Shown here: positions 8,913 through 39,383 of the stretch, one piece after another
How positions within the stretch are numbered: the stretch's first letter is position 1
Layout of the letters: each line of letters begins with the position of its first letter
IMG/VR virus record: IMGVR_UViG_3300031760_000017
Strand: one strand, 5' to 3'
Source of the DNA: a virus
Length of the DNA: 64,000 nucleotides
Position numbers and translations under genes: made by a program
Notes under the pieces: model-generated
Databases searched by the model: none
What the model saw: only the letters and a program-made list of their open reading frames with translations
What the model was told of the DNA's origin: nothing

Positions 8913-10181
8913 TTACTCACCTAAGATTGTGCCATCGACATACTCAAGACGTTTTACAACAAAATCACGTATCTGCAAAATGTTGTTGTCCGTCTTTCCG
9001 GGGATCGTAATAAAAGCCCCGTCTGCTGTTGTCTCTGCATAATCCTCGGCATAAAGATATGGCGGAATCTGGCTTATGAACTTGTCGAACTCTCCGAGAA
9101 TATTTCCGGCAGAAAGTACGGTTTCTCTAAGTTCCTGATACCTTGCTATTACATCGCTCTGGAAAAGATTCCAAATACGATAATGCAGGTAGTTGTCCTC
9201 TTGAAACTGCGTATATCCGTTATAATTCTCTTGGAAGATTGTGTTATAAGGACGCCATGTTACTTCTTCCTGTCGCACAAGTCCGGTCATTCCCCACGTA
9301 GAATCCAAATCGTACAAACCTGTGTACCACTGTTCTGCATCATACGTAAAAAATGTCTGATTCTTTGCGATCAGGTCAATGGCACATATAGCCCTTACGA
9401 ATATATGCATATCAATGAGCGATTGCAGGTCAATCTTTGAATCTATCCCGGCTATAAACTGCGCATCTGTTGAATTACATATAAACGCCAGTACGGAAGT
9501 CCAACTATCGGCAATGACTGTTGGCATTTCATCGTGAAGTTCATCAGACCATTTTCCATTCATTGTCGGCTGTCTGAAAAACATCGTGTTATCATCAGCA
9601 AGCCCATCTGTCTGAATAATGCAGTTTGTTTCCTCGTCAGAATCCACACCGTACATACCGTCTTTCGGTAAATTCCATGTATAAAGACCATAGTATACAC
9701 CGTTGTGGTAGACCTTGACCGGGAATCCATCAATCGCAAGATTGCTCTTTCTCAGCGTAGCAGGTAGGGATGCAAAATTACTCCTTGACCTGACTGCCTG
9801 TGACCAAAGACGGGCATTAACAATATTTCTTGCATGGCTGTGGTCTATCCAGTTTGCTTTAAGGACAAACTTATTTCTAGGTTTATCCCAATCTCTGAAA
9901 AGACGTTTGCTCTTTGATTTTCTTGCGCTGTCTGTAAAAAGATTTATCGTGTAATTTTTCTTTGGATAGTAGGCAGATGAATCTCCTTGTACTTTAGCTG
10001 TAGCGTAATCCGTGAATGATTCCGTTGCGCTCTTGTATGTTATCTTAATGTTGCTCTTGCCTTCTGTCTTTGTCGCATACAGTTCACCCTCGATGGACAC
10101 AACTGGAATATCACCGTCATTGGGTTCATATCCGCCTACGTTTACAATATTTCCATGATAATCATAAATATAAGCCATCAT
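8913..10181 (-). CDS. Tail-associated or receptor-binding protein, possibly CotH-like. Standard code and GC-rich
   Basis: Intact 422-aa ORF with no TAG. GC is about 45%, against about 28% in the flanks. SD-like AGGGGTGA upstream. Confidence 0.5.
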   Translation of the reverse strand: MMAYIYDYHGNIVNVGGYEPNDGDIPVVSIEGELYATKTEGKSNIKITYKSATESFTDYATAKVQGDSSAYYPKKNYTINLFTDSARKSKSKRLFRDWDKPRNKFVLKANWIDHSHARNIVNARLWSQAVRSRSNFASLPATLRKSNLAIDGFPVKVYHNGVYYGLYTWNLPKDGMYGVDSDEETNCIIQTDGLADDNTMFFRQPTMNGKWSDELHDEMPTVIADSWTSVLAFICNSTDAQFIAGIDSKIDLQSLIDMHIFVRAICAIDLIAKNQTFFTYDAEQWYTGLYDLDSTWGMTGLVRQEEVTWRPYNTIFQENYNGYTQFQEDNYLHYRIWNLFQSDVIARYQELRETVLSAGNILGEFDKFISQIPPYLYAEDYAETTADGAFITIPGKTDNNILQIRDFVVKRLEYVDGTILGE

Positions 10182-10189
10182 ATCACCCC

Positions 10190-11014
10190 TTAAACAGTAA
10201 TATTCGTTCCGACAAGTTCATTGATTTCCTGATTGGATAATGCAACTTTATAGATTTTATAGAAATCTATTGTGCCTGACCACGGTTTAACTGTGCCACT
10301 TTCAACTATGCCAATCTTATAATTACCTACAGCGTCAGCGGTACTCGTTATAATGTCCTCTAAAGAGTAAACAAGGTCATCATCAACATAACTATGTATC
10401 AATAAGTGCTTTGAAAAGTTTCTTACTACGATAATTATATCGTGCGCAACATCCATACTAAAAGGTGTAGAGTTACCTCCAAGGTTTTTAAATGTTGTCC
10501 GTGTCATAATTTGTTCATTAGATACGGTTGTTGCAATTCTCAAGCCTGTAACGACACTTCCATTTAATCTGGATTTTGCGCTTGCGTCCAGTAGGAATGA
10601 AGCCTCAGTGGTAGGCTCCCACGTCCCCTTTATCAGGATCGTAAAATCCTCGTTATCCATATCATTTCTTGCAGGTACTCCGGTATCGACTGTAAATGCA
10701 CTCATATCTGTTCCATACGGCAACTCATAAATAACCCGGCTGTCTACACTCATGCTGAACAATGCATCTTTCAGGGCTTTGCCGTACTTCTCACCGTCCT
10801 CGGTATCCCAATATACATGCTCAAAACAGTCTATAAGGGCTGTCTTTACATTATCCGGCATAATGCTATATGCGGGAATTACAAGACCGTCTGAGCCGAT
10901 AGCAAGCACCCTCCCGGCATTTATAGCTCCCTGCTGTTTGTCAACTTTCTGACCATTTGAAATAGCTTCAATAAGTGCGTCAACCTTTGCACCTTCCCAA
11001 ATATTAACTGCCAT
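10190..11014 (-). CDS. Tail protein with a LamG/concanavalin-like domain. Standard code and GC-rich
   Basis: 274 aa. The C-terminal FYKIYKVALSNQEINEL is typical of the last LamG strand. GGAGGTG SD. ATGA overlap with the upstream gene. Confidence 0.5.
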   Translation of the reverse strand: MAVNIWEGAKVDALIEAISNGQKVDKQQGAINAGRVLAIGSDGLVIPAYSIMPDNVKTALIDCFEHVYWDTEDGEKYGKALKDALFSMSVDSRVIYELPYGTDMSAFTVDTGVPARNDMDNEDFTILIKGTWEPTTEASFLLDASAKSRLNGSVVTGLRIATTVSNEQIMTRTTFKNLGGNSTPFSMDVAHDIIIVVRNFSKHLLIHSYVDDDLVYSLEDIITSTADAVGNYKIGIVESGTVKPWSGTIDFYKIYKVALSNQEINELVGTNITV

Positions 11015-12087
11015 TATACACCTCCGTTATATGTAACCGTTGTTTCGAGTGTTGTAAGATTGGTTACGATTGTCAGTGATTCTCCTGTGTTCAGCGTTCG
11101 GACTTCTGTTATTGTTCCAGTACCATAAGTAAAAGCGTCCGTTCTTATAGCTACCGAATTACGACTGTGAGTAACCTGAGAAACCTTCCCATCGGTGAAC
11201 GTATATGCCTGAGTTGTATCAGGAACATCATCACTAAGAAGCATTAACTTATGTGTTAAATCCCCGGTAGTGCTGACCCATGCATTCCATGTAGAAGTAA
11301 ATGCACTATATGTTCTAACCCATACTTCTATGCTTGTTCTTCCCGACTTGTAAGTATAGGTCAACCGCTGAAACGTCCTACCTACATTGTTTCCAAAAAC
11401 TTCATGCCAAACTTCCAAAATTCCATGCTCACTATCGGCAGTAGGTTTGTGAAGATATGAATTATCAGTGTGAAGCATATACACACCGGGAGTCAATACG
11501 GTATTCAAGTCCGTTCCGTCAGCAAGCCTTTGAGGTTCTGTTAATGCACCTAAATCAGCCTTTATTTCCGTAAACTCATCTCCAACAGCTTTCGCATCAG
11601 CTGCAGTTCCAGTTATAGAAAGCGTATCATCTACTTCAATTTGTTTAGCATCAATAGCAGCATTTACTTCGGCTTTCGTATAAGTATTTGATGCGTTTGC
11701 TTTCTTATTTAACTCTGTTTTAACTGCCAACGCATCTGCAGCGGCACCTTCAATAGTTAAAGTTTTATCAACAATAACCGCACTTCCTACAGGATTTACA
11801 TTATCATCTAACCAATCAGTAGTATCCGCACTAATTTGTTTTCTTAAAAAATCATTTAATCTTGAATTAAATTCATTAGTGCTAATTTTATCTCCATCCA
11901 ATTCATCAATCTGATGTTGGAGATTTCCTTTTCCAGAAGAAGAAATATCGACACTTCCTAAAGCATCTAATAAAGTATGATTATTTTCATCCCACTAAAC
12001 ATTTTGGACATTCACACTAATAGGAATTTCTCCAGTATAAGTGCCATTCTTTTGCTTTATTTTTATAGCCTTTATTTTATCAGCCAT
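11014..12087 (-). CDS. Chimeric tail fibre. The AT-rich, TAG-containing N-terminus of about 62 aa is fused to a GC-rich, TAG-free C-terminal domain of about 295 aa
   Basis: The track ORF 11014..11901 extends upstream through one in-frame TAG to the ATG at 12085-12087, which has an AAAGGAGG SD. The C-terminal part carries tail-fibre repeats such as TIEGAAADALAVKTEL and ITGTAADAKAVGDE. Confidence 0.6.
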
Positions 12088-12106
12088 AAAACTTCTTCCT
12101 CCTTTC

Positions 12107-12424
12107 TTAAACATAATTTTCTAATTTATTAAAAATTTTATTAGTCACATATATAATTTCATCTCTATAAGTTGAAATTAAATCCGCAACTAACTCCTAT
12201 TGTTCAATAGTAAGATTTACATTATAAGAAAACATTGCAGCATGTGTAATTTCATGACATAAAACTTTCCTTAATAGTTTACCAGTTAGCGTCTCATTTA
12301 TGTATATAGTTCTAGTCAAATTATCACATGCACCTATTGAAAAATCTCCAGACTTTCTTCTTAAAAGAGGAAAGTCTGGAGATACAAAAGCAAGTTTCCA
12401 ATATGTGTTATTTATTAAAAACAT
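12107..12424 (-). CDS. ImmA/IrrE-family (COG2856-like) zinc metallopeptidase with an HEITH motif. One in-frame TAG
   Basis: The HExxH motif (HEITH) is present. The ORF extends through a TAG to TAA 12107-12109. It lies directly upstream of the tail-fibre gene. Confidence 0.45.
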
Positions 12425-12449
12425 TAAGAAATTTTGTTTGCTAGCGTTG

Positions 12450-12611
12450 TCATTTTTTGACGTAAGGTTTATTACCCATATAATTATTATATGGGGTGTT
12501 GCTCAATAACATGTTATTGCTCCCATAAGGAAATTGTACTTGCGGTTGCCCCATCATTCCGCTCATAAGCTGAGGCTGTTGCAAATAGTTAGAATTATTG
12601 TAATTTGCCAT
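12450..12611 (-). CDS. Small Q/N-rich protein, 53 aa
   Basis: ATG with GGAGGAAAG SD. Ends in TGA. Confidence 0.4.
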   Translation of the reverse strand: MANYNNSNYLQQPQLMSGMMGQPQVQFPYGSNNMLLSNTPYNNYMGNKPYVKK

Positions 12612-12757
12612 TACTTTCCTCCAATCGAGATCTCTTTTTACTTTTTGAATTATTTAACAGTTACTAAATTTTCGCGAAAAAAGAAAGAGTTTTTTCTTTC
12701 CACATATATATAAAAATTTCTACTATTAAATTAATTACATTTGACCAAAAAATTGAG

Positions 12758-12786
12758 TTGACAAAAATAAAAATTTTTTGTATAAT
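12758..12786 (+). promoter_or_regulatory. Sigma70-like promoter: TTGACA, 17 bp, TATAAT
   Basis: Exact consensus hexamers with 17-bp spacing, upstream of the resolvase gene. Confidence 0.6.
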
Positions 12787-12810
12787 ACAGATAAGAAAGA
12801 GGTGTAATTT

Positions 12811-13299
12811 ATGAAAATATTATCATTAGATTTATCAACAAAATCTTCTGGTTGGTGTGTAGGAGAAGATGGAGTTATAAAATCTCACGGATGCATTACC
12901 GCATCATCAAAAGATGTGATTCAAAGAATTATAAAGATGCGGAGTTAGTTATCTGCAATTATATAGAAAAATAAAATAGATAAAATTGTTATGGAATAGG
13001 TACGACCTGACTTTAATTCACATACGAGTAAGGTATTAATGTGGCTTCAAGCAGCAATTGCAATTGCCGCACACTAGATTAATCCGAAGATTTAGTTTTA
13101 GTTCATCGGACCTAGTGAATGGCGTGCCGCATTAAAATTTAAGCAAGGTCGCGGAGTAAAAAGAGATAATTTAAAATCACAAGATATACAATATGTTAAA
13201 GATAAATATAGCACAGATGTAAATGATGACTAGGCAGACGCAATATGTCTTTTTGACGCTTATTCAGAAAAATTTGATAATGAAATAAATTGGGAATAA
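12811..13299 (+). CDS. RuvC-like Holliday junction resolvase, 162 aa, TAG-recoded
   Basis: The N-terminus MKILSLDLSTKSSGWCVGEDG is typical of phage RuvC-like resolvases. Five or more in-frame TAGs. Ends in TAA. Confidence 0.6.
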
Positions 13300-13603
13300 A
13301 AAAGACTAATCTTATTCAAGATTAGTCTTTTTTATTTTATTATTCTTCTTCTTTTTTATCCTATTCTTTTAAATCATCTAAAGGAATCTTATTAACCTTT
13401 CTAGATTTCATAGATTGAACAGTATAATCATTCTAAATCTTCTGTTTTTTTACTATTTTCCAAATCTATTGAAATAAAAAGAATTTAATTAAAAAAGGAA
13501 GCTATGATTTATTAAACTCCTAAATAATTTTCTATTGAAAATTATAACACATTAAATTATAATCATTTTCATTCATTTTTAATACCTCTTATCTATAATT
13601 ATA

Positions 13604-16600
13604 TCAATCTATATAACCAACCCATCCTCTATACGGACTACCATATGAATGTCCATCATACCATCTTCCAAGAGCATAACCCCATTCAAAATAAAGAATC
13701 CGAGGAGAACTTGAATCATTTGGATCTGCATGCTCGATCCATATATCTGTAACAATCTGTCCCCAAGAAACTTTTTGATTATCATAAGTAAAATAATCAG
13801 CTTCTAATTCTTCAGTTGAAAGATAATCTGATCTAATTTGTGAAGCAGTCAAATAATCTGATCTAATTTGTGAAGCAGTTAGATAATTTGCATTAAGAGT
13901 TTGAGTAGAAACATAATTTGCTTTAACTTGATTAAATTCTGCTTTATCAGCATATAATGTATCACATTTTATAATCATCTTATCAGTCAAACTTCCAGAA
14001 TAATAACTGTTGGTCATATCACTAGCCATAACAGTATTAGGATCTAACCAAGAGTCACCTGAGCCTCCTATAGTAAAACCATATCCATTTAAGGACTGTC
14101 CACTCATAACCTATCCATAAATTTTCCCAAAATAAGCATCTCCATTTGCGCTAATAGACCAAGAAGGACCAGATATACTACCCTCATAATCAAGAGAAAG
14201 ATTACCAGCTTTTAAATCATAAGTATTAATATTCCATCCGCCTATCTGTCCGGAGCTTGCATTTATCTCGCCTGATAAATTTACATTAGATGCTGTTAGA
14301 TTACCATTATTATCAACAGAAAATCTAGAACCAAGAGCAATTTCATCAGTTCCAATATAAACGCTTCTATTATTTCCTTTTGTTCCAAAAGAAATTGAAC
14401 TTAAATTAGCTGTAAAATCTCCTTTAATAGTCCAATGATTTCCAGATAAATACCCCATTTCTAAAGTCGCAGGTTTTATTGTTCCATTATCTGAATATCT
14501 ATTAGTAAATCTAAAAGAATTTCCTAAAGATAAGCCAAGAGGAGATAAATGAAAACCATCAGCTGTATTAGTTAATTCTGTTTTATTTCCACTATAAATA
14601 CGACTACGATCAGCTTCTAAAGTAATTTTTTGACTATTTAAAGAATTACTTTCAGTACCAATTAATTTAGTACCATTTATAGTCCAACCGCCAATTTGAC
14701 CAGATGTTGCGGTAATTTTCCCACTTAAATCTGTATTAGTAGCAACTAAATTTCCATTAGAATCTACTTTAAAACGTCCTGAACCATATCTTATTTCAGG
14801 TTTTGTTAAATCAATTAATAAACCTTGACCTTTTTCATTACTAGATGTATAATTAGATGGTAAGCCATTTTCATTATAATTTTTCCAAAAATTACCACTA
14901 TATAATAAAGCATGACTAGTACTTGGATCTATTACAATTTGCCCATTGTTAGCTTTTCCAAATAACGCAGAACCATTTTCACTATTTAAAAAGAAAGTTC
15001 TATCACCTTTATTATATCCTAATAATCCAATGTCAGGAGCAGTCTTATCTGGATTTTTAACTTCACCCATTAAAACTCCAGTAAAACTATTATCATTTTC
15101 TTTTTTACCTGCGCCCATTTGCGGAGCTAAGATATAACCACCCTTATCATCTAATTGAATACTGTTGCCATCCCAAGCGTTAATATGAGCTAATCCATAT
15201 TTATTTAATAAGAAATGAATAGGAATATGAATTCTAGCAATAACCTAATTATTATTAACACTTTTAACAGTACATACTAAAGCATTATTAACACACTAGC
15301 CGCTATACCTTGAAGCTGGTCGACATATGCATTGATTCTTTTGTAAATTTTTAGTATAATAACTCTAAGTTAATAACTCTAAATCATGAGAATCGTTATT
15401 ATAAGGAAACTAATCATACTAACCTACTTCAATCTAATGTGTCTGTATTATATTTATAACATCACCATTAACTGAATAACTAAAATTAACTGCATGACTT
15501 CCAGAAACTAATGATATATCTTCCCATTTATTATTTATTTTTTCTTTAATAATAAATTCAAAAGGTTTAGAATTGTCATATTGAGGAGATAAACCATCAG
15601 AACTATACATGACATATCTAAATCCAGTATAATCTTTTAATTCAATTCTATAATTATCATTTTTAACCCATGCAGTTGCAATAGGCAATGTACTATAATA
15701 TGAGTGCTGATTATAAGTTATTGTGCATTTTAGAATATCTGCTAATGTTTGCGTAAAAGTAGTGTCTATTGGATGTGCTGTTGTATTCACATATGAAATA
15801 AGTCCAGTATTAGCATTTACAATATTAAAAGAACTTTCATCAGTAAAATTTGTTTTATAAAAATTCTTTAACATGTTCCAAGTTACAGAACTAGGACTAG
15901 TTACACCATCTTTTGGATTTGCGGCAGTTGAAGTTCCTTCCCAAATCAAATCTCCACTTTGCCATAGCTGAGCTTTAAATAAGGTTTTTCCAACATTAAA
16001 TCCTGCAGTTTGCTACTATCCAGTTCCGCTTGCCGCAAAATTAATAATATAAGAATTAGAATCTCCTATTGCTGTTAAAGTAGGGTAAATAGGTAATATT
16101 TTTGCTGTACTATTTGGAACAATTTTCACAATATATTGGGTCCCATTTGTACCAGGTTCTCCCTATTTTACAAAAGTAAAGTTAGTTTTTGCAACTAAAT
16201 TAATCTACTTATAAGTTACAAATAATTCAATCTGATTATTTAATTTTTTTACATCATATTTTTGTGCAATATCATAAACTAAAGTATCTAAATTTGAATA
16301 ATATCTATAACCTTCCTATTCAACTGCCCATGTTTTATTGTTTTTGTCAACTAATAAAGTATTTTCAATAGGAATTTTCCAAGTAACTTGTCTTTTCTTT
16401 ATATCATCAGTAATATCATTCCCTAAATTATCATATACCTTAAAAGTTAAAGCTAAAATCTATTGCGGATCATCTAAACTTTTACTATTAGGCGCAATAC
16501 CATTCTAATTATATTTATATGATGCAGAGCCATTTTCAATAATTAGTGAATATATATTTTCCGCCTATAAAGAATTACTTAAAGTAATTGAAGCTGTTCC

Positions 16601-30700: not shown

Positions 30701-30773
30701 AATTAATTGATTTTTTATAAAATTTTTAATATAATTATAATATAAGTTATTAAAGAAAAAAGAGGTAAAAAAT

Positions 30774-32741
30774 ATGGGAAGATATGATAATGAAAATTGG
30801 GACACTTCGTCTCAGATGAATAGACAGCGAGACTTGGTTCTTTCCACAAATGAATTTTGTTTCTTGCAGTCTAAAACAAATGGTGCAATTAAAACATATA
30901 CTGGTCCTATTACCATGACAATTTCCGCTCAGGAATCTCTTGTTGTCTTTAATTCTAAGACAAAGAAATTTGAGGAAACTCAGGACTTTGAAAAGGCTAA
31001 ACAGCTCTTTATTTCTGCTCCTGAAGGATGGTATGTAGTTCTAAAGAATCCTGCGGTAGACAATTCTCATCCGGAAGCCGCAAAAGCTGTCAATAGTCCT
31101 AATCTTGAAATTGGTCGCAAGATTAATATTGGTGGACCTGTTTCCTTCTCACTGTTTCCTGGACAGATGACAAGAGTTATCAGAGGACATAGACTTCGTT
31201 CTAACCAGTATCTTCTTGCTAGAGTTTATGATGCGGACGCTGCACGTAAAGGTATTACAACAGCAACTATTGTTGATACAGAAGGCAAGGAAGTTACAGC
31301 AAAACCCGAGGAATATTTCGTTGGTCAAATGATTGTTATTAAAGGAACTGAAGTTTCTTTCTACATCCCGCCAACAGGAATCGAAGTTATTCCTATCGGA
31401 AATAGTAATGAATATGTCCGTGATGCAGTTACTCTTGAAAGACTTGAATATGCAATTCTGAAAGATGAAGATGGCGAAAAAAGATATATTCATGGTCCTG
31501 CGGTGGTGTTCCCGAAACCAACTGAAACATTTGTTTCAGCTCCTAAGGGTGGACTTATTTTCCGTGCTCTTGAACTTTCACCAATTAGCGGAATTTATGT
31601 AAAAGTAATTGCCGCATACGATGAAACAAAGAATGGTAAGAAAGTTCATCATCCAATTGGAGAAGAGCTTTTTATCACAGGAAAAGACCAGATGATTTAT
31701 TATCCACGTCCGGAACATGCTATGATTCAGTATGATGGTAAGTATATGCACCATGCTATCGCAATTCCAGAAGGCGAAGGTCGTTATATTCTTAATAGAC
31801 TTAGTGGAGAAATTAAGACTATTCGCGGTCCTCAGATGTATCTACCAGACCCGCGTTATGAAGTAGTTGTTAAAAGAAAACTTACTCCTAAAGAATGCGA
31901 TTTGATGTATCCTGGTAATATGGAAGTTCTGAAATATAATGGGAACCTTACAGAAAAAGCTGTTGAAAAGATGGCTAGTAGAGGTCTTACAGGTTCTGCC
32001 GTAACAGATGCGCTTAATAATGTATATTCAACTTCTAATCAGGAAGCAACTCTTGCTATTTTTGAAGCCAATGCAAACATTTCTCGCGGCGTAAGTTATA
32101 CAAAACCGCGCACAATTACACTTGATACTAAGTACGAAGGTGTTGTTGGAATTAACGTTTGGGGCGGATATGCTATTAATGTAGTATCTAAAGCTGGTAA
32201 GAGAGATGTTGTAGTTGGTCCAACTACTCGACTTCTTGATTATGATGAAACTCTTGAAGCAGTTGAACTTTCAGGGGGTACTCCAAAGAGTTCTAAGCCA
32301 ACTGTAAGAACAGCATTTTTACAGATTGAAAATAATAGAGTTTCTGATATTATTAATGTACAGACTTCAGACTCTGTTGCTGTTGAAATTCATCTTAGCT
32401 ATTGTGTAAGTTTCTTAAAAGAATATAAAGATTCTTGGTTTGCTATTAATAATTATGTAAAATATCTGTGTGATAATATGCGTTCTCTTGTTAAGAGAGA
32501 AGTAAGAAAATATTCTATTAAAGATTTTTATGCAAAATCTACTGAAATTATTAGAAATATTGTTCTTGATACTGAAACAGAAAAAGAACTTTTTGGTAGA
32601 TTCTTTTCTGCAAACGGCATGCTTGTAAATGATGTTGACATTATCAGAGTTACTGTTGAAAGAAACTATGAGCGTCTTCTTGAAAATCATCAGGCTGAGC
32701 TTATTCAGAAGAGTATTGATTTAGCTGATGCAGAAACATAG
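30774..32741 (+). CDS. Major vault protein (MVP)-like protein: repeat domains plus an SPFH-like shoulder. It ends in TAG directly abutting the next in-frame ATG
   Basis: 655 aa. Repeat and shoulder-like regions. The stop codon TAG at 32739-32741 is immediately followed in frame by ORF 32742.. with no SD. Confidence 0.45.
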   Translation: MGRYDNENWDTSSQMNRQRDLVLSTNEFCFLQSKTNGAIKTYTGPITMTISAQESLVVFNSKTKKFEETQDFEKAKQLFISAPEGWYVVLKNPAVDNSHPEAAKAVNSPNLEIGRKINIGGPVSFSLFPGQMTRVIRGHRLRSNQYLLARVYDADAARKGITTATIVDTEGKEVTAKPEEYFVGQMIVIKGTEVSFYIPPTGIEVIPIGNSNEYVRDAVTLERLEYAILKDEDGEKRYIHGPAVVFPKPTETFVSAPKGGLIFRALELSPISGIYVKVIAAYDETKNGKKVHHPIGEELFITGKDQMIYYPRPEHAMIQYDGKYMHHAIAIPEGEGRYILNRLSGEIKTIRGPQMYLPDPRYEVVVKRKLTPKECDLMYPGNMEVLKYNGNLTEKAVEKMASRGLTGSAVTDALNNVYSTSNQEATLAIFEANANISRGVSYTKPRTITLDTKYEGVVGINVWGGYAINVVSKAGKRDVVVGPTTRLLDYDETLEAVELSGGTPKSSKPTVRTAFLQIENNRVSDIINVQTSDSVAVEIHLSYCVSFLKEYKDSWFAINNYVKYLCDNMRSLVKREVRKYSIKDFYAKSTEIIRNIVLDTETEKELFGRFFSANGMLVNDVDIIRVTVERNYERLLENHQAELIQKSIDLADAET

Positions 32742-33263
32742 ATGAAAGCTGTAAAAGACCTTGCAGAAATGAAGCGACAGAAAGCTGATATTGAAAATCA
32801 GGCTGAGCTTTATAGAATTCAGCGTCAGAAAGAGGAAGCTGAAGCTGAAATGCAGTATAAAGAAGCTATTCAGGTTAAAAAGCGTGAAGCTGAAGCTGCA
32901 GCAGCCCAGGCTAAGAAAGACCTTCAGGAAGTTCTTAATGCAATCCAGACCGCTGAAGTTGCAAGAGAAAAAGAGAAGCATGCGGCAGAAGTTGCTCATG
33001 CAAAGGAACTTGCGGAAATTGAGAAAGCTAAGCAGGAAGCTTATGCTGCAACCGTAAAAGAAATTATGAGTTCTATCTCTCCTGACCTTGTTGCCGCAAT
33101 CAGCGCTAGCTCGAAAGCAGACCTTCTTAAAGAAGGTATGAAGAATATGTCTCCTTATGCAATCGCTAATGGAGAATCTGTTGCAGATACTGTTAACAAG
33201 CTTATGAGAGGAACTTCTCTTGAAGATGTCCTTGATAAAGCTTCTCCAAAAATTAATTTCTAA
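32742..33263 (+). CDS. MVP cap-helix-like coiled-coil domain. Probably the C-terminal part of an 829-aa read-through fusion with 30774..32741
   Basis: EA-rich coiled coil followed by ...SPDLVAAISASSKADLLKEGMKNMSPYAIANGESVADTVNKLMRG. Compare human MVP ...[46 protein letters not shown]. Confidence 0.45.
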   Translation: MKAVKDLAEMKRQKADIENQAELYRIQRQKEEAEAEMQYKEAIQVKKREAEAAAAQAKKDLQEVLNAIQTAEVAREKEKHAAEVAHAKELAEIEKAKQEAYAATVKEIMSSISPDLVAAISASSKADLLKEGMKNMSPYAIANGESVADTVNKLMRGTSLEDVLDKASPKINF

Positions 33264-33762: not shown

Positions 33763-33778
33763 AAGGAGATGATAAATA

Positions 33779-35017
33779 ATGCTTAATAAAAACAATGAAA
33801 GAGAACTTGCTTATGTGGTTATTGTTGATGCAGTAACTCCAATTAAAGGTTATGATAGAGTAGAGCTTGCTCATGTGGGCGGATGGACCGTTGTAGTTGG
33901 AAAAGGCGAGTTCCATGCGGGCGACCCCGCAATTTATTTTGAAATTGATTCTCAGCTTCCTGAGGTAGAGCCATTTACTAATATGGAATTTCTTGCTAAG
34001 AAACATTATAAAATTAAAACACAGAAAATGTGTAAATCTATTTCTCAGGGGCTTCTAATGTCTGCCGCAAATTTTGGATGGAAAAAATCTGCTGAAAATG
34101 CAGGTGACTTTCCATACATCAAGGATAATGAAGGTATTTGTCATTTTACAAATGATGAGTCTCGTTTCCTTACAAAGCAGCTTAATGTAACATACGCCGT
34201 TCCAGAAGATAATGCCCGCAAAGCAAATTCTGTTGATAAATATAAGAAAATGGCACAGCGCAATGGTAAGCTTTTCTCTCATCAGCCGTTTAAATGGCTT
34301 ATGAAAAAAGAGTGGGGAAGAAAACTTCTTTTCACATTCTTTGGTAGCAAAAAGGATAAGACAGGCTGGCCCGCATGGGTAAAAAAGACAGATGAGGAAA
34401 GAATCGAAAATCTTCCATATCTGTTTGAAGATAAGTCTCCTTGGATTGCTACTGAGAAAATTGATGGGACTAGCACAACTTTCACCCTGAAACGCGGAAA
34501 AGGACTCTTTAAGAAAGATGAATTTTATATTTGTTCCCGTAACGTATGTTTCGATAGACCTAATAAAAATTGTTTCTATGAAACAAATGTTTATATTGAA
34601 ATGGCTGAAAAATATAATATTTATAATAAGATGAAGCATCTTCTTGAAACAAAATATAAAGATTGTGAATGGATTACAATTCAGGGTGAGACTTATGGAA
34701 CTGGAATTCAGAAACGTGATTACCATATGACAGAACATAATTTTATGGCTTTTAACCTGATTTCCTCTAAAAATGGAAGAGAAAATTCACTTATTATGAA
34801 AGATATTCTTGAGAAGGAAAATGGTATTCCTTGTGTTCCTATTGTAGCTGACTCTTATACACTTCCGGGCACTCTTGAAGAGCTTCGTGAGTTTGTAGAT
34901 AGTGATACTTCCGTTATTGACGGAGAAATTAGAGAAGGAATTGTATTCCGTTCCACTGACGGTTCTCGTTCTTTTAAATGTGTTTCTCCAACATATCTTA
35001 TGAAATATCATCAGTAA
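33779..35017 (+). CDS. ATP-dependent RNA ligase (Rnl-family nucleotidyltransferase)
   Basis: KxDG adenylation motif (EKIDGTS). 412 aa. Sits in a cassette with the kinase and phosphatase genes. Confidence 0.6.
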   Translation: MLNKNNERELAYVVIVDAVTPIKGYDRVELAHVGGWTVVVGKGEFHAGDPAIYFEIDSQLPEVEPFTNMEFLAKKHYKIKTQKMCKSISQGLLMSAANFGWKKSAENAGDFPYIKDNEGICHFTNDESRFLTKQLNVTYAVPEDNARKANSVDKYKKMAQRNGKLFSHQPFKWLMKKEWGRKLLFTFFGSKKDKTGWPAWVKKTDEERIENLPYLFEDKSPWIATEKIDGTSTTFTLKRGKGLFKKDEFYICSRNVCFDRPNKNCFYETNVYIEMAEKYNIYNKMKHLLETKYKDCEWITIQGETYGTGIQKRDYHMTEHNFMAFNLISSKNGRENSLIMKDILEKENGIPCVPIVADSYTLPGTLEELREFVDSDTSVIDGEIREGIVFRSTDGSRSFKCVSPTYLMKYHQ

Positions 35018-37080: not shown

Positions 37081-37097
37081 TCTAAAGGAGAATAAAA

Positions 37098-39383
37098 ATG
37101 ACATAGAAAGAATTTATTTAGAAAGTAAAAAATCCATGTATAAATGCAACAAATATAATCGGCGGTTATCTTCCCAGCGTATTAATTGGACAAATGTGTT
37201 TATAGACTGGTTACGGAACTGGATATAATTGCGAATTATTAATGCAATGGAATAATTTGCTTGGAATGAAAACTTAGTTATTAAATGACACTTGGAAATC
37301 TAAATATTGGAATGGCAAATCCGCAACTAAAAGAACTCCAGAGTATTATGGTTACCATACAACTATTACAGATTCATTCAGGGTTTATGATAATATTTAG
37401 CAATGTGCATGTGACTATTTACAATTTATGCGCGATGCTAAATATTCTAAAAACGGAAACTATAAATATAGAGATGTTTTAACAATAAAAGATCCAACTC
37501 AACTGATTACTCAAGTATCTAAACGAGGATATGCAACAGATCCAGCTTATATTACATCTGTCATGAGTATTATTAAAAAATATAACTTAACTCAATATGA
37601 TTCAAATGGAGGGAATAAACCTATGACATTAAAATAGGCATTATCAAAACTTGGTGTTAATTTAATTAATAGAATTAGTCAGAATAGAAGCCAAGTTCCT
37701 GCTCATAATGCAAATTCACACCAATATTTTGCTGTTCACTACCTTGGTGTAAATGGTTAGAATCCAGACCTATATGGCGGCGGATATGGTGGACATTTTT
37801 ACGTAAGTAAAGATGGTAAATGCTATCAAGCCGCGGAAGTAACTGATAAACTTTGGCATGTAGGTGCTTCTTCAGGATTCTCTTATATTCATTCTTATGC
37901 AAGAAATAATAATACAATAGGAGTTGAATGCGGAACTTACACAGCTTCTGGAAGAAATAATGATAATGAGACATGGTATTTTACAGAAGCCACTCAAGTA
38001 ACTGCCGCAAAATTAGCAGCAGCTGTACTTACTGTTTATAATTTACCTATGGATCATTTATTAAGACATGGGGATATTACAACTAAAAATTGTCCATCTC
38101 CATTAAAAAGAGACCAGGGTAAAGGTAGCAACTGGACTTGGGATAAATTTAAATCAGAAGTTTCTAAATATATGGCTCAATTAGGAAATGAATCCGCTCC
38201 AACTGTTACTATTCTAAAATTAGGAAGTAATGGAAAATAGGTTAAAGAATTACAAGAAAAATTATTACTTTTAGGATTTGTAGATTGTGCTTATTACAAT
38301 AAAAATAGAAATTTCGCAGATGGTGATTTTGGATAGAATACTTTAAAATCATTAAAATATTTCCAACAAGCAAAAGGATTATAGGTTGATGGTATTTATG
38401 GACCAAAAACCGCAGAAGCATTAGATAAAGCCGTTAAAGAAGCAAAAGCTTCAAAATTTGATGTTACAGTAGATGAATTTTTAAATAATGCAAAAATTAT
38501 TGCAAAAGAAAATAAAGAAAAAGGCTTTAAATATGGTAATGCTTGTTGCTTACCTTCAGTTTATCCTTTTGAAAAAATAACATCTTGTGATAGATTTGTC
38601 GATCAAGTTTTATATAAGAGTGGATTAAAAACTGTTGGTAATCGCGGTTTTACTGATTTATAGGATTGTTTAATTAATCTTAAAGCTCAAAAAATTTATC
38701 GAGAATCTTAGTTACAAAAAGGTGATATTGTATATACAATTGGACATGTATTCATTCTTGGAAACAAAATTTCTAATACTACTTATTAGAGATACGATGC
38801 AGGTTCTGTTGAAAGAATCCAATTAACTGGACCTTATGCTAGCTATAAATCTCAGCCTTTTGTTGAAGAAATTGACCTTTTCACTTTTGCTTATAGATTA
38901 CCTTTTAAAACAAAAGAAGAAAAGAAAGAAAAGACTTCAACATTTTTAAAACTTGGTGATAATAGTGCATCAGTTAAACAAATGCAAGAAAAATTAATTA
39001 AACTTGGATATTTTGTAGGCACAGCTGGTGCGGATGGCGATTTTGGTCAAAACACATTAAAAGCATTAAAATATTTTCAATCTAATCATGGATTAACCGC
39101 AGATGGATATTATGGTCCACTTGCTAAACAAAAATTAGAAAGTATCTATAATAAAATTAAAAATTATGATACACCTACTAAACATGATAATTTAATTAAA
39201 GAGAAAATTTTTACAACAACAGACAATTTAAATTTACGTAAAGGTTCTTCAATAGCACATGAAATTATACTTTAGATTCCAAAAGGAGCAAAAGTAAAGT
39301 GGTATGGTTATTATACCGGATCTTGGTATTATGTAGTTTATAATGGAAATATTGGATATGCATCTTCTCATTATTTAAAATAA
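37098..39383 (+). CDS. Multidomain endolysin, about 761 aa, TAG-recoded with about 17 in-frame TAGs. It has a glucosaminidase-like N-terminus and an amidase_2/PGRP domain. Two PG_binding_1 repeats and a CHAP/NlpC-like region follow. A C-terminal SH3 domain completes it
   Basis: A single frame joins track ORFs 37428.., 38049.. and 38982... Motifs HGDITTKNCP (amidase_2) and ADGDFG.NTLK.LKYFQ (PG_binding_1, two copies). SH3-like C-terminus. Ends in TAA. Confidence 0.7.

What the first reader, a model, noticed from the sequence alone, without database searches (positions are those of the whole stretch)
8913..12087. Mosaic tail-fibre block: GC-rich, TAG-free receptor-binding domains grafted onto a native recoded N-terminal anchor
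Three consecutive minus-strand genes at 8913-11901 have about 45% GC and no TAG codons at all. They sit inside a module that is otherwise 28% GC and TAG-rich. The first fibre gene is chimeric. Its first 62 codons (12087 down to about 11902) are AT-rich and contain a TAG. The remaining 295 codons are GC-rich and carry tail-fibre repeats. This looks like a recent horizontal swap of host-range determinants from a standard-code phage, with the conserved virion-attachment N-terminus retained.
Basis: seen in the sequence. Interest (0 to 1): 0.65.

Follow-up and report, generated by a model that had tools for sequence, protein, structure and literature searches.

The report
Swapped host-range cassette in recoded phage
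A gut phage that reads the stop codon TAG as glutamine has replaced the tip of its tail fibre and two accessory genes with a cassette taken from ordinary-code phages, and the swap ends exactly at a short conserved DNA element that many Clostridia phages share.

Summary
The composition step is real. Window 8913-11547 is 40-42% GC, with GC3 of 0.32-0.41 against 0.165±0.048 for the other genes. It has no TAG among 934 codons where about 20 are expected. It sits inside a TAG→Gln recoded late module of about 27% GC.

It only marks the first start codon after the in-frame TAG at codon 31. Sister phages are 96% identical up to 11731 (codon 119), and one strain variant is 99.9% identical up to 11547 (codon 180). 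GC3 jumps there, at a conserved 'KADL' hinge.

The imported block is the fibre tip, a LamG-like protein and a CotH-family protein. The same three-gene unit occurs in standard-code phages, at 88% and 92.5% nucleotide identity. That is closer than the homologous cassette in a sister recoded phage (76-81%). In that sister cassette, two TAGs align with CAG codons here.

The 3' crossover lies in a 22-nt element, AGTNAACTAAACGCCCATTTAG (8896-8917). This element ends fibre cassettes in both recoded and standard-code phages. It also lies upstream of every sampled relative of the adjacent tyrosine recombinase.

Verdict: a genuine exchange of a host-range cassette across genetic codes. This is a new variant of a known kind.

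The parts
11014..12087 (-). Tail-fibre gene, 357 codons. ATG at 12087, GGAGG ribosome-binding site at 12098-12102, in-frame TAG (read as Gln) at codon 31 (11995-11997), stop TAA.
11731..12087 (-). Native N-terminal anchor, codons 1-119. Composition matches the backbone.
   Evidence: 96% nt identity to sisters L001, L003, L015, contiguous with the upstream M78-like gene; identity ends at 11731. GC 0.32, GC3 0.16. More distant relative L013 is 53% aa identical over residues 1-119.
11548..11730 (-). Stalk segment, codons 120-180, with 'GAAADA / GTAADAKAVGDE' repeats and ending in the 'KADL' hinge. Still backbone-like at synonymous sites. A second, nested breakpoint.
   Evidence: 99.9% identical to L011 and 96% to L014 up to 11547, then abrupt divergence. 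GC3 0.05-0.25 up to codon 180. P0009-P0012 are 88-97% aa identical over residues 1-187 and have different C-termini.
11014..11547 (-). Imported fibre tip: two beta-rich domains, the last about 80 aa being a widely shared C-terminal domain.
   Evidence: GC3 jumps to 0.3-0.5 at codon 181. 88% nt identity to standard-code L006 over 11554-10914. 79-92% aa identity (alignment A3) to P0004-P0008, whose N-termini are unrelated; P0004's contig L006 has a BppU_N protein in the gene just upstream.
10190..11014 (-). LamG/ConA-like lectin-type accessory protein, 274 aa. TAG-free, GC3 0.36.
   Evidence: Pfam Laminin_G_3 E=0.002, below the cut-off. A syntenic LamG gene sits between fibre and CotH in L003, L006, L015, L016. 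40% aa identity to L006 and 32% to L003. Its 3' end is 92.5% nt identical to L019.
8913..10181 (-). CotH-family protein, 422 aa. TAG-free, GC3 0.41, CAG 12 / CAA 4.
   Evidence: Pfam PF08757 E=5.9e-28, 98.7 bits against a cut-off of 23.8. P0121 is 98% aa identical; its contig L019 is 92.5% nt identical and standard-code. 83% aa to recoded sister L015, 75% to standard-code siphophage L016.
8896..8917 (-). Conserved junction element AGTAAACTAAACGCCCATTTAG (general form AGTNAACTAAACGCCCATTTAG: arms CTAAA/TTTAG around the 6-nt spacer CGCCCA). It overlaps the CotH stop codon and is the 3' crossover point of the cassette.
   Evidence: Single copy in the window. Donor-like homology (L019) ends at 8896 and backbone homology (L001, L014) starts at 8917. 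Present after the last cassette gene in L001-L006, L014, L015, L019. About 22 of 34 IMG/VR 16-mer hits share the extended context. Left and right flanks reassort around it. No Rfam or literature match.
8722..8783 (-). Terminator-like hairpin (GGAGGACTATAT...ATATAGTCCTCC followed by a T-run) that closes the fibre operon. Part of the backbone.
   Evidence: Inverted repeat I4. The sequence is conserved in L001.
7690..8703 (-). Tyrosine recombinase (SAM-like N-domain plus catalytic domain) with 10 in-frame TAG codons and backbone composition. Starts about 190 nt downstream of the junction element.
   Evidence: Pfam Phage_integrase E=2.8e-37. 53-59% aa identical to recombinases that follow the same element in L050 (31% GC backbone) and L051 (55% GC backbone). 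Among 16 IMG/VR relatives, 11 have the element with at most 3 mismatches 95-750 nt upstream; the other 5 have diverged versions at the same place. Deleted in sisters L001, L003, L015, leaving a remnant of its start.
12107..12424 (-). M78/ImmA-like metallopeptidase gene (1 TAG). This is the backbone gene directly upstream of the fibre gene and marks the native 5' flank.
   Evidence: Pfam Peptidase_M78 E=1e-4. 96% nt identity to sisters, contiguous with fibre codons 1-119.

Best explanation
Window about 8896-11547 is a horizontally exchanged host-range cassette. It comprises the distal tail-fibre tip, a LamG-like lectin-type protein and a CotH-family protein.

The cassette replaced an earlier one in a TAG→Gln recoded phage of about 27% GC. 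That phage is a distant relative of Phass-1 in the 'Caudoviricetes code 15 clade' and probably infects Clostridia.

The virion-attachment part of the fibre (codons 1-119) and its repeat stalk (to codon 180) stayed native and still carry the lineage's TAG at codon 31.

The replacement was a double crossover. The 5' crossover was at the conserved 'KADL' hinge of the fibre (about 11547). The 3' crossover was inside a 22-nt junction element that directly follows the last cassette gene (8896-8917).

The source pool is standard-code phages of about 45-50% GC. That explains why the block has no TAG, prefers CAG for Gln and has a high GC3. All three genes end in TAA, so they terminate correctly in the recoded phage.

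Once resident, such cassettes start to convert CAG to TAG, which is a synonymous transition under this code.

Shown: the composition, the breakpoints, synteny with standard-code phages, identity ranks, flank reassortment around the element, and the link between recombinase and element.

Inferred: the direction and timing of transfer, the receptor-binding role, and the possibility that the element is a recombination site used by the adjacent tyrosine recombinase. I put that last step at about 0.35. The alternative is ordinary short-homology recombination at a conserved regulatory sequence.
For: Composition and codon usage:
- GC and GC3 step.
- 0 TAG observed against 19.7 expected; Gln usage CAG 19 / CAA 7 in the cassette against 34 / 316 in late genes.

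Recoding:
- Long ORFs are open only with TAG read as sense.
- TAG-to-other substitutions between sister backbones are 6 of 13 CAA/CAG.
- The published relative Phass-1 uses tRNA-Sup(CTA)/Gln.

Breakpoints:
- 96% nt identity to L001, L003, L015 up to 11731, resuming at 8917.
- 99.9% to L011 up to 11547. L014 shares both flanks but carries a different cassette.

Standard-code counterparts:
- L006 has fibre, LamG and CotH downstream of Prophage_tail and BppU_N genes, and is 88% nt identical over 644 nt. Its cassette is 0.41-0.49 GC (per-gene) in a backbone of about 0.49-0.55.
- L016 is a 52-kb siphophage contig with LamG and CotH.
- L019 has CotH at 92.5% nt identity, followed by a holin.
- The sister recoded cassette in L015 is only 76-81% nt identical, and its two TAGs align with CAG in the window.

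Junction element. Recombinase link.

Host: the endolysin has glucosaminidase/amidase, PG-binding and SH3 parts. Tip-domain relatives occur only in Clostridia/Ruminococcaceae MAGs.
Against: - No donor above 92.5% nt identity was found, and none covers the whole cassette. The block itself looks mosaic: tip 88% to L006, LamG only 40% aa to L006.
- The window's exact two junctions were not seen in an independent assembly. Look-ups of its own proteins failed.
- No suppressor tRNA lies in the window.
- Against the recombinase-site idea: there is only one copy of the element per genome. Only about 6 of about 20 element-bearing loci with enough downstream DNA have a tyrosine recombinase within 1 kb. 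Sister phages that lost the recombinase still vary at the locus.
Confidence: 0.8

Rival explanations
1. Metagenomic assembly chimera. The assembler joined the recoded phage to a co-occurring standard-code phage through short shared sequences and then returned to the backbone.
For: Several strain variants with different cassettes exist on near-identical flanks (L011, L014). The 3' junction is a 22-nt sequence shared with standard-code phages. The window's exact junctions were not recovered independently.
Against: - Two coordinated in-frame joins that return to the same backbone would be required.
- Homology overlap at the 5' junction is under 10 nt, too short for a k-mer join.
- The same architecture (recoded anchor, tip, LamG, CotH, junction element, backbone) appears in four independent assemblies from different pipelines: L003, L004, L005, L015.
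Confidence: 0.03
2. The genes are native, and their composition is shaped by selection. They would be kept TAG-free and GC-richer so that they can be translated before the code switch, or for high expression.
For: Other TAG-free genes with raised GC3 and CAG-only Gln usage exist in the window: 1491-3014, 30741-33263 and 33776-35017. Cassettes in all relatives are TAG-poor. Phass-1 shows the same pattern after its baseplate genes.
Against: - The fibre ORF is gated by the conserved TAG at codon 31, so a TAG-free tip gives no early-translation benefit.
- The block shows 88-92.5% nt identity to standard-code phages, against 76-81% to the sister cassette, while the backbones are 95% identical.
- Sister cassettes do carry TAGs, at positions that are CAG here.
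- In high-GC phages the same cassette is less GC-rich than its backbone.
Confidence: 0.07
3. Transfer ran the other way. The cassette type originated in the recoded lineage and was exported to standard-code phages.
For: The cassette's GC of about 0.41 is discordant with both kinds of backbone: lower than in L006, L016 and L051, higher than in the window. Neither kind is therefore an obvious home.
Against: - With TAG making up 32% of Gln codons in the lineage's late genes, any long residence would leave TAGs. Those would be lethal on export.
- The window's copy has none, and its CAG:CAA ratio is 19:7 against 34:316.
- L019/L035-type phages, at 0.43-0.48 GC, match the cassette's composition.
Confidence: 0.05
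4. Programmed variation within one genome: an invertible or shufflon-type fibre segment driven by the neighbouring recombinase, or a diversity-generating retroelement.
For: A tyrosine recombinase gene lies directly next to the fibre cassette. Rci-type shufflons use tyrosine recombinases (from my own knowledge).
Against: - No inverted or direct repeat pairs flank or lie within the block. The best inverted repeat is 30 nt at 77%.
- The junction element is single-copy in 64 kb even when 3 mismatches are allowed.
- There are no alternative promoterless tips and no template/variable repeat pair.
Confidence: 0.02

Closest known systems
Modular exchange of tail-fibre / receptor-binding genes between unrelated phages (classic P2/Mu/lambda-type fibre mosaicism, from my own knowledge; a recent example is Alteromonas phages sharing fibre plus chaperone modules, PMC10579305)
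   Same: A conserved N-terminal anchor is kept. The C-terminal tip and downstream accessory genes are swapped as a unit. The crossover sits at a conserved hinge inside the fibre gene.
   Different: Here donor and recipient use different genetic codes, which leaves a codon-level signature: no TAG, CAG-rich, and early CAG→TAG conversion in sister cassettes. The 3' boundary is a defined 22-nt element shared across many phages.
TAG→Gln (code 15) recoded gut phages: Phass-1 / 'Caudoviricetes code 15 clade' (PMC10607447) and the survey of recoded phages (bioRxiv 10.1101/2021.08.26.457843)
   Same: Low GC. TAG is enriched in structural and lysis genes and absent from many others. Genome size class of about 107-136 kb. 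Predicted Clostridia host. A baseplate protein is 30% aa identical to Phass-1.
   Different: Term searches of those two papers found no mention of horizontal transfer or recombination. Babkin et al. do note that the receptor-binding fibre differs between Phassvirus genomes; neither paper links this to TAG content or composition. Their recoded prophages have TAG-free integrases, whereas this recombinase has 10 TAGs. No suppressor tRNA lies in this window.
Conserved junction sequences that mediate module shuffling: PeSL elements of T4-type phages and 'linker' sequences of lambdoid phages (from my own knowledge)
   Same: A short conserved intergenic sequence lies at a module boundary, and unrelated left and right modules reassort around it.
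   Different: The sequence is different and has a palindromic arm-spacer-arm layout. It is consistently linked to one tyrosine-recombinase family.
Site-specific recombination hot spots next to their recombinase gene: P1 Cre/loxP, phage Int/attP, integron IntI/attI-attC (from my own knowledge)
   Same: The recombinase gene lies 95-750 nt from a short site with inverted arms around a 6-nt spacer. Spacer variants exist (CGCCCA / CGGGCA). One possible hybrid site was seen (L064). The content on one side is variable and cassette-like.
   Different: There is only one site per genome and no cassette-borne second site. Many element-bearing phages show no recombinase nearby. No biochemical evidence exists and no attB was identified.

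Membership tests
TAG→Gln (code 15) recoded phage | Essential late genes are interrupted by in-frame TAG and become long ORFs when TAG is read as sense | tested here: met
   The total length of ORFs of at least 100 aa rises from 15,245 to 22,946 aa. ORFs of 2888 aa (71 TAG) and 1564 aa (26 TAG) appear. The endolysin has 14 TAG.
TAG→Gln (code 15) recoded phage | TAG positions correspond to Gln codons in homologues | tested here: met
   Both cassette TAGs in L015 align with CAG in the window, and L006 also has CAG at one of them. 6 of 13 TAG-to-other substitutions between sister backbones are CAA/CAG although CAG is rare. Integrase TAGs align with E/D/Q/K/N. The sample is small.
TAG→Gln (code 15) recoded phage | Phage-encoded suppressor tRNA (anticodon CTA) | tested here: inconclusive
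   ARAGORN finds only Gln(TTG), Gly, Arg and Cys tRNAs in the 64-kb window. A 100%-identical protein cluster (P0002) lists a longest contig of 107 kb, so part of the genome may lie outside the window.
Horizontally acquired island | Synonymous-site composition and codon choice differ from the resident genome | tested here: met
   GC3 of 0.32-0.41 against 0.165±0.048. CAG:CAA of 19:7 against 34:316. 0 TAG against 19.7 expected.
Horizontally acquired island | Closest relatives lie outside the lineage, and sister genomes differ at the same locus | tested here: met
   92.5% nt to standard-code L019 and 88% to L006, against 76-81% to sister L015. The backbones are 93-96% identical, while L001, L011 and L014 carry other cassettes.
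Phage tail fibre / receptor-binding protein | Encoded in the tail module, with a conserved N-terminal attachment region and variable C-terminal domains | tested here: met
   The gene lies near the tape-measure-like (PhageMin_Tail) and tail genes. Residues 1-119/187 are conserved, with at least 6 different C-termini.
Phage tail fibre / receptor-binding protein | Fold similar to solved receptor-binding proteins | tested here: inconclusive
CotH family (PF08757) | Pfam model match above the gathering score | tested here: met
   E=5.9e-28, 98.7 bits against a cut-off of 23.8, covering profile positions 2-322 of 322.
CotH family (PF08757) | Atypical-kinase active-site residues and activity | not tested
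   No PDB sequence match was available to align against, and residues were not inspected. The role in the virion is unknown.
Tyrosine recombinase | Catalytic domain with the R..K..HxxR..H..Y residues | tested here: met
   Pfam Phage_integrase E=2.8e-37 plus SAM-like N-domain. SSGIR, GKGGKWR, HRFR, GHS and HYAH are conserved with L050 and L051 in the alignment (read by eye).
Site-specific recombination site of that recombinase (attP/lox-like) | Inverted arms around a short spacer, placed next to the recombinase gene across relatives | tested here: met
   CTAAA-CGCCCA-TTTAG. 11 of 16 relatives have it with at most 3 mismatches 95-750 nt upstream on the same strand, and 5 have diverged versions at the same place. 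More distant tyrosine recombinases (23-27% identity) do not have it.
Site-specific recombination site of that recombinase (attP/lox-like) | Partner site (attB or a second lox-like site) and hybrid products; recombinase-dependent exchange | not testable with these tools
There is one possible hybrid (L064: TTTAAGGCGCCCATTTAG with the L050-type right flank). The forward association is only about 6 of 20.
Shufflon / invertible fibre segment | Two or more inverted copies of the crossover site bracketing alternative fibre ends | tested here: not met
   The junction element is single-copy with up to 3 mismatches allowed. No convincing inverted repeats lie in 7000-14000.

The most novel reading that the evidence does not exclude
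The 22-nt element AGTNAACTAAA-CGCCCA-TTTAG, together with its tyrosine-recombinase family, forms a shared docking site for receptor-binding cassettes across many Clostridia phages.

Site-specific crossover at this element would fix the 3' end of every exchange, and a homologous crossover at the 'KADL' hinge would complete it. Host-range modules could then move between phages of unrelated backbone, base composition and even genetic code.

In the recoded phage the recombinase carries 10 TAG codons. It could therefore act only after the code switch, that is, late in infection when genomes are replicating and co-infecting genomes are present.
Probability: 0.3. Interest if true: 0.8.

Novelty: new variant of a known kind. 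Interest (0 to 1): 0.55.

Why it matters
This is a clean natural case of genes crossing a genetic-code boundary between phages that presumably share hosts. It suggests that recoding does not isolate a phage from the common pool of host-range genes. Import works as long as the incoming genes lack TAG stop codons.

It also offers a codon-level clock for residence time, because CAG converts to TAG after arrival.

For gene callers and host predictors, such islands explain the 'mixed-code' blocks seen in recoded phage genomes.

The conserved junction element and its recombinase family, if functional, would give a testable mechanism for rapid host-range turnover in gut Clostridia phages. They would also offer a handle for engineering fibre swaps.

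Tried and rejected
- GenBank phages: blastn of the block found nothing. tblastn of the fibre found nothing. CotH matched at 32% aa or less. A backbone segment gave only short hits.
- Shufflon, inversion or DGR: no repeat pairs and a single-copy element.
- IMG/VR scan with the fibre anchor found no relatives.
- First genome-contig scan with the tip domain found nothing. The second, with a C-terminal-domain alignment, found only hits of 44-49% identity in Clostridia/Ruminococcaceae MAGs. No named host followed from this.
- Exact-protein look-ups failed for P0006, P0017, the window's CotH and P0002. The window's source sample and an independent copy of its junctions therefore remain unverified.
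- NCBI cluster members carried no names.
- PDB sequence searches of all three cassette proteins found nothing.
- Rfam and a full-text search for the element found nothing.
- tRNA genes next to hybrid or variant sites: none.
- A scan for the L050-type right flank gave only the two known contigs.
- The five genes missing from the window relative to its sisters have no Pfam match.
- The IMG/VR 16-mer scan returned 34 hits. About 12 of them lack the extended context and may be chance. That is my own judgement, not a tool statistic.


Full report
**The observation**

The composition step exists. In 300-nt windows, GC is 0.39-0.45 from about 8900 to 11700 and 0.17-0.29 on both sides. A two-change-point likelihood fit places the edges at 11751 and 8901.

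Three minus-strand ORFs fill the block:
- a fibre-like gene;
- a 274-aa gene with a weak Laminin_G_3 match;
- a 422-aa CotH-family gene (PF08757, E=5.9e-28).

The window belongs to a phage that reads TAG as a sense codon. Treating TAG as sense raises the summed length of ORFs of at least 100 aa from 15,245 to 22,946 aa. It also opens ORFs of 2888 aa (71 TAG) and 1564 aa (26 TAG).

In eight late genes TAG makes up 2.1% of codons. That predicts 19.7 TAGs in the 934 cassette codons, and none is present (P about 2e-9). Gln codons are CAA 316 / CAG 34 / TAG 164 in late genes, but CAA 7 / CAG 19 / TAG 0 in the cassette.

Across 46 ORFs and ORF segments, the cassette GC3 values (0.41, 0.36, 0.32) lie 3.2-5.1 SD above the rest (0.165±0.048).

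The fibre gene starts at ATG 12087, behind a GGAGG site, and has a TAG at codon 31.

The proposed junction at codon 62 (about 11902) is only the first start codon after the TAG in a standard-code reading. Codons 61-100 are the most AT-rich part of the gene, and GC3 stays at 0.05-0.25 up to codon 180. It then jumps to 0.3-0.5.

Total GC rises earlier, near codon 100, because of Ala/Gly/Asp-rich repeats.

**Relatives and breakpoints**

Protein searches show a strongly modular fibre. Residues 1-119 or 1-187 are 88-97% identical in proteins with at least six unrelated C-termini. The tip (residues about 181-357) is 79-92% identical, in the alignment, to proteins whose N-termini are entirely different; P0004's contig has a BppU_N protein in the gene just upstream.

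Contigs encoding these proteins include syntenic sister phages: L001 (131 kb), L003 (68 kb) and L015. Their backbones are 93-96% nt identical to the window on both sides of the block.

Identity to these sisters runs through the upstream M78-like gene and fibre codons 1-119 to 11731, stops there, and resumes at 8917.

Two short JGI contigs map a second, nested breakpoint.
- L011 is 99.9% identical to 11547 and then continues into an SGNH-esterase fusion.
- L014 shares 11784-11547 and 8917-8451 (99.6%, including the start of the recombinase gene). Between these it carries a different tip/LamG protein and a GH16+Big_2 gene.

An alignment shows the 5' switch falls directly after ...AAGGCTGATTTAG, which encodes the 'KADL' hinge. 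The same hinge precedes tip domains in many unrelated fibres.

**Origin of the cassette**

The same gene order (fibre tip, LamG, CotH) occurs in standard-code phages.
- L006 has the three genes downstream of Prophage_tail and BppU_N genes. It is 88% nt identical to the window over 11554-10914.
- L016 is a 52-kb siphophage contig with capsid, tape-measure, Prophage_tail, LamG and CotH genes followed by a holin.
- L019 holds the closest relative of the window's CotH, at 98% aa and 92.5% nt over 10438-8896. There CotH is followed by a Phage_holin_4_1 gene.

By contrast, the homologous cassette in sister phage L015 is only 76-81% nt identical, although the backbones are about 95% identical. The three cassette lineages (window, L003, L006) are 57-65% aa identical in CotH and do not follow the backbones.

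So the cassette was replaced after the sister backbones diverged, and its nearest sampled relatives use the standard code.

In the high-GC phages the cassette is less GC-rich than its backbone:
- L006: 0.41-0.49 per gene against about 0.49-0.55 for the upstream tail genes;
- L051: 0.37-0.41 against 0.50-0.60.

In AT-rich phages it is more GC-rich:
- the window;
- L050: 0.47 against 0.31.

This fits a module that keeps moving and never equilibrates.

The two TAGs inside L015's cassette align with CAG in the window, and one of them also with CAG in L006. Among sister backbones, 6 of 13 TAG-to-other substitutions are CAA/CAG. CAG→TAG is therefore the likely conversion path, and the window's copy shows none of it.

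All three cassette genes end in TAA, so they carry no termination problem in the recoded phage.

**The 3' boundary**

Homology to L019 ends at 8896 and homology to the sister backbones starts at 8917. The overlap is AGTAAACTAAACGCCCATTTAG. It occurs once in the window even when three mismatches are allowed.

The same element follows the last cassette gene in all the recoded relatives sampled here, whether that gene is CotH, a GDSL esterase or GH16. It also does so in the standard-code contigs L006 and L019.

A 16-mer scan of IMG/VR gave 34 hits. About 22 share the extended context of a stop codon plus GTNA.
- Upstream genes are fibre-type proteins or enzymes that probably act on wall glycopolymers: GDSL esterases, a metallophosphoesterase, an NAGPA phosphodiester glycosidase.
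- Downstream genes are holins, a small HTH protein, or a tyrosine recombinase.

Clustering of the flanks shows reassortment. One holin-type right flank pairs with seven different left flanks. The recoded backbone's right flank pairs with four cassette types. The window-type CotH left flank pairs with either the recoded backbone or a holin.

The element matches no Rfam family and was not found in the literature library.

**The recombinase**

Directly downstream of the element, by about 190 nt, lies a tyrosine recombinase gene (7690-8703; Pfam E=2.8e-37). It has backbone composition and 10 in-frame TAGs.

Sisters L001, L003 and L015 have a clean deletion of about 1 kb that leaves a degenerate remnant of its start, so the gene is ancestral here.

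Recombinases 53-59% identical to it follow the same element in a 31%-GC phage (L050) and a 55%-GC phage (L051). In each case the recombinase has its own backbone's composition, while the upstream cassette does not.

I then ran the reverse test on 16 IMG/VR relatives of the recombinase (53-66% identity).
- Eleven have the element with at most three mismatches 95-750 nt upstream on the same strand.
- The other five have recognisably diverged versions at the same place.
- Variants include the spacer change CGCCCA/CGGGCA and the palindromic CTAAACACCTGTTTAG.
- One site, in L064, keeps the right half and right flank of L050 but has a different left half. It may be a hybrid site.

The forward association is weaker. 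Only about 6 of about 20 element-bearing loci with enough downstream DNA have a tyrosine recombinase within 1 kb.

I therefore treat 'recombination site of this recombinase family' as a hypothesis at about 0.35. The alternative is that the element is a conserved regulatory sequence at the end of the tail operon, and that it merely provides the only homology available for crossover.

**The phage and its host**

There is no DNA match to GenBank phages. A baseplate-like protein is 30% aa identical to Phage Phass-1 (OQ749652, 'Caudoviricetes code 15 clade') and 36% to an unannotated 176-kb faecal phage contig.

Phass-1 uses TAG→Gln with three tRNA-Sup(CTA) genes and is predicted to infect Clostridia (PMC10607447). 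In Phass-1, too, TAG-free genes of 48-50% GC directly follow TAG-rich baseplate genes of 33-35% GC. The paper notes that receptor-binding fibre proteins differ between Phassvirus genomes, but it does not connect this with code or composition.

The survey preprint on recoded phages contains no occurrence of 'tail fiber', 'horizontal' or 'recombination', and it reports TAG-free integrases in recoded prophages.

In the window, a 761-aa endolysin with 14 TAGs carries amidase, PG-binding and SH3-type parts. Distant relatives of the tip's C-terminal domain occur in Clostridia and Ruminococcaceae MAGs. Both point to a Gram-positive Clostridia host, but no host was named.

**Function of the cassette proteins**

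The LamG-like and CotH proteins have no solved relatives by sequence. They travel with the tip in both kinds of phage. In other variants they are replaced by esterase, glycosidase or phosphoesterase genes. This suggests they bind or modify cell-surface glycopolymers during adsorption.

**Rivals**

An assembly chimera is unlikely. The joins are in frame and return to the same backbone. Homology overlap at the 5' join is under 10 nt. Four independent assemblies show the same architecture.

Selection for a TAG-free native gene does not explain the identity ranks. Nor does it explain the TAG at codon 31, which already gates the fibre.

Export from the recoded lineage is unlikely given the absence of TAG and the CAG bias.

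Inversion or DGR mechanisms lack the required repeats.

**Verdict**

The finding is real, and its interpretation is essentially right once the boundaries are corrected. Tail-fibre mosaicism is well known and code-15 phages are known.

Three things are new here:
- a documented exchange across genetic codes, with precise junctions;
- a codon-level signature of arrival and early CAG→TAG conversion;
- a conserved junction element tied to one recombinase family.

Noticed in passing
window 7690-8703 (-): The tyrosine recombinase carries 10 in-frame TAG codons (3% of codons), so it can only be made after the code switch. Recoded prophages described in the literature have TAG-free integrases. Sister phages L001, L003 and L015 have deleted it cleanly, leaving a remnant of its start.
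   Followed up: partly
L064 about 520-540 (IMGVR_UViG_3300037249_001145, near the contig end): A possible hybrid site, TTTAAGGCGCCCATTTAG. The right half and right flank are identical to the L050-type site, but the left half and left flank differ: a ribbon-helix-helix-like gene (my own reading of the sequence) in DNA of higher GC. It could be an integration or exchange product of the junction element.
   Followed up: partly
window 12450-12611 and junction 12465-12468: The window lacks 2.4 kb that sisters L001, L003, L015 and the more distant L013 all carry between the RuvC and M78-like genes. The missing stretch holds five genes of 160, 78, 258, 151 and 193 aa; my reading of the sequences is that they are Q/N-rich and Gly/Cys-rich, and they have no Pfam match. 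A 53-aa remnant ORF remains in the window.
   Followed up: partly
window 1491-3014, 30741-33263, 33776-35017 (+): Three TAG-poor genes (0-1 TAG) use CAG almost exclusively for Gln (CAA/CAG of 0/8, 1/26 and 0/9) and have raised GC3 (0.33, 0.23, 0.26), unlike the rest of the genome. They are a DUF2828/DUF7788 protein (phrog_850, 'RNA-binding protein'), an 840-aa protein with no PHROG hit, and an RNA ligase. They could be early genes or an RNA-repair set with separate codon constraints, or older imports.
   Followed up: no
window 396-1395 (+): A tRNA cluster: Gln(TTG), Gly(TCC), Arg(TCT), Cys(GCA). It accounts for the GC-rich start of the window. No suppressor tRNA(CTA) was found in these 64 kb.
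   Followed up: no
L018 = Phass-1 OQ749652 35.5-39.1 kb: The published code-15 phage Phass-1 shows the same pattern. TAG-free genes of 48-50% GC (637, 206 and 350 aa) directly follow TAG-rich baseplate genes of 33-35% GC (1885 aa with 25 TAG; 746 aa with 8 TAG).
   Followed up: partly
L003 6120-6857 and L015 4008-4745: A 245-aa gene with a weak GIY-YIG match sits next to RuvC in two sister phages. It is absent from the window and from L001, so it is probably a homing endonuclease that comes and goes.
   Followed up: no
window 11995-11997 and fibre codon 72 (11872-11874): TAG at fibre codon 31 is conserved in all four sister genomes. Codon 72 is TAG in L001, L003 and L015 but GAA (Glu) in the window.
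   Followed up: yes
window 37086-39383 (+): A 761-aa multi-domain endolysin (glucosaminidase/amidase, PG-binding repeats, SH3-like end) with 14 TAG codons. This fits the reported enrichment of recoded stops in lysis genes and points to a Gram-positive host.
   Followed up: no
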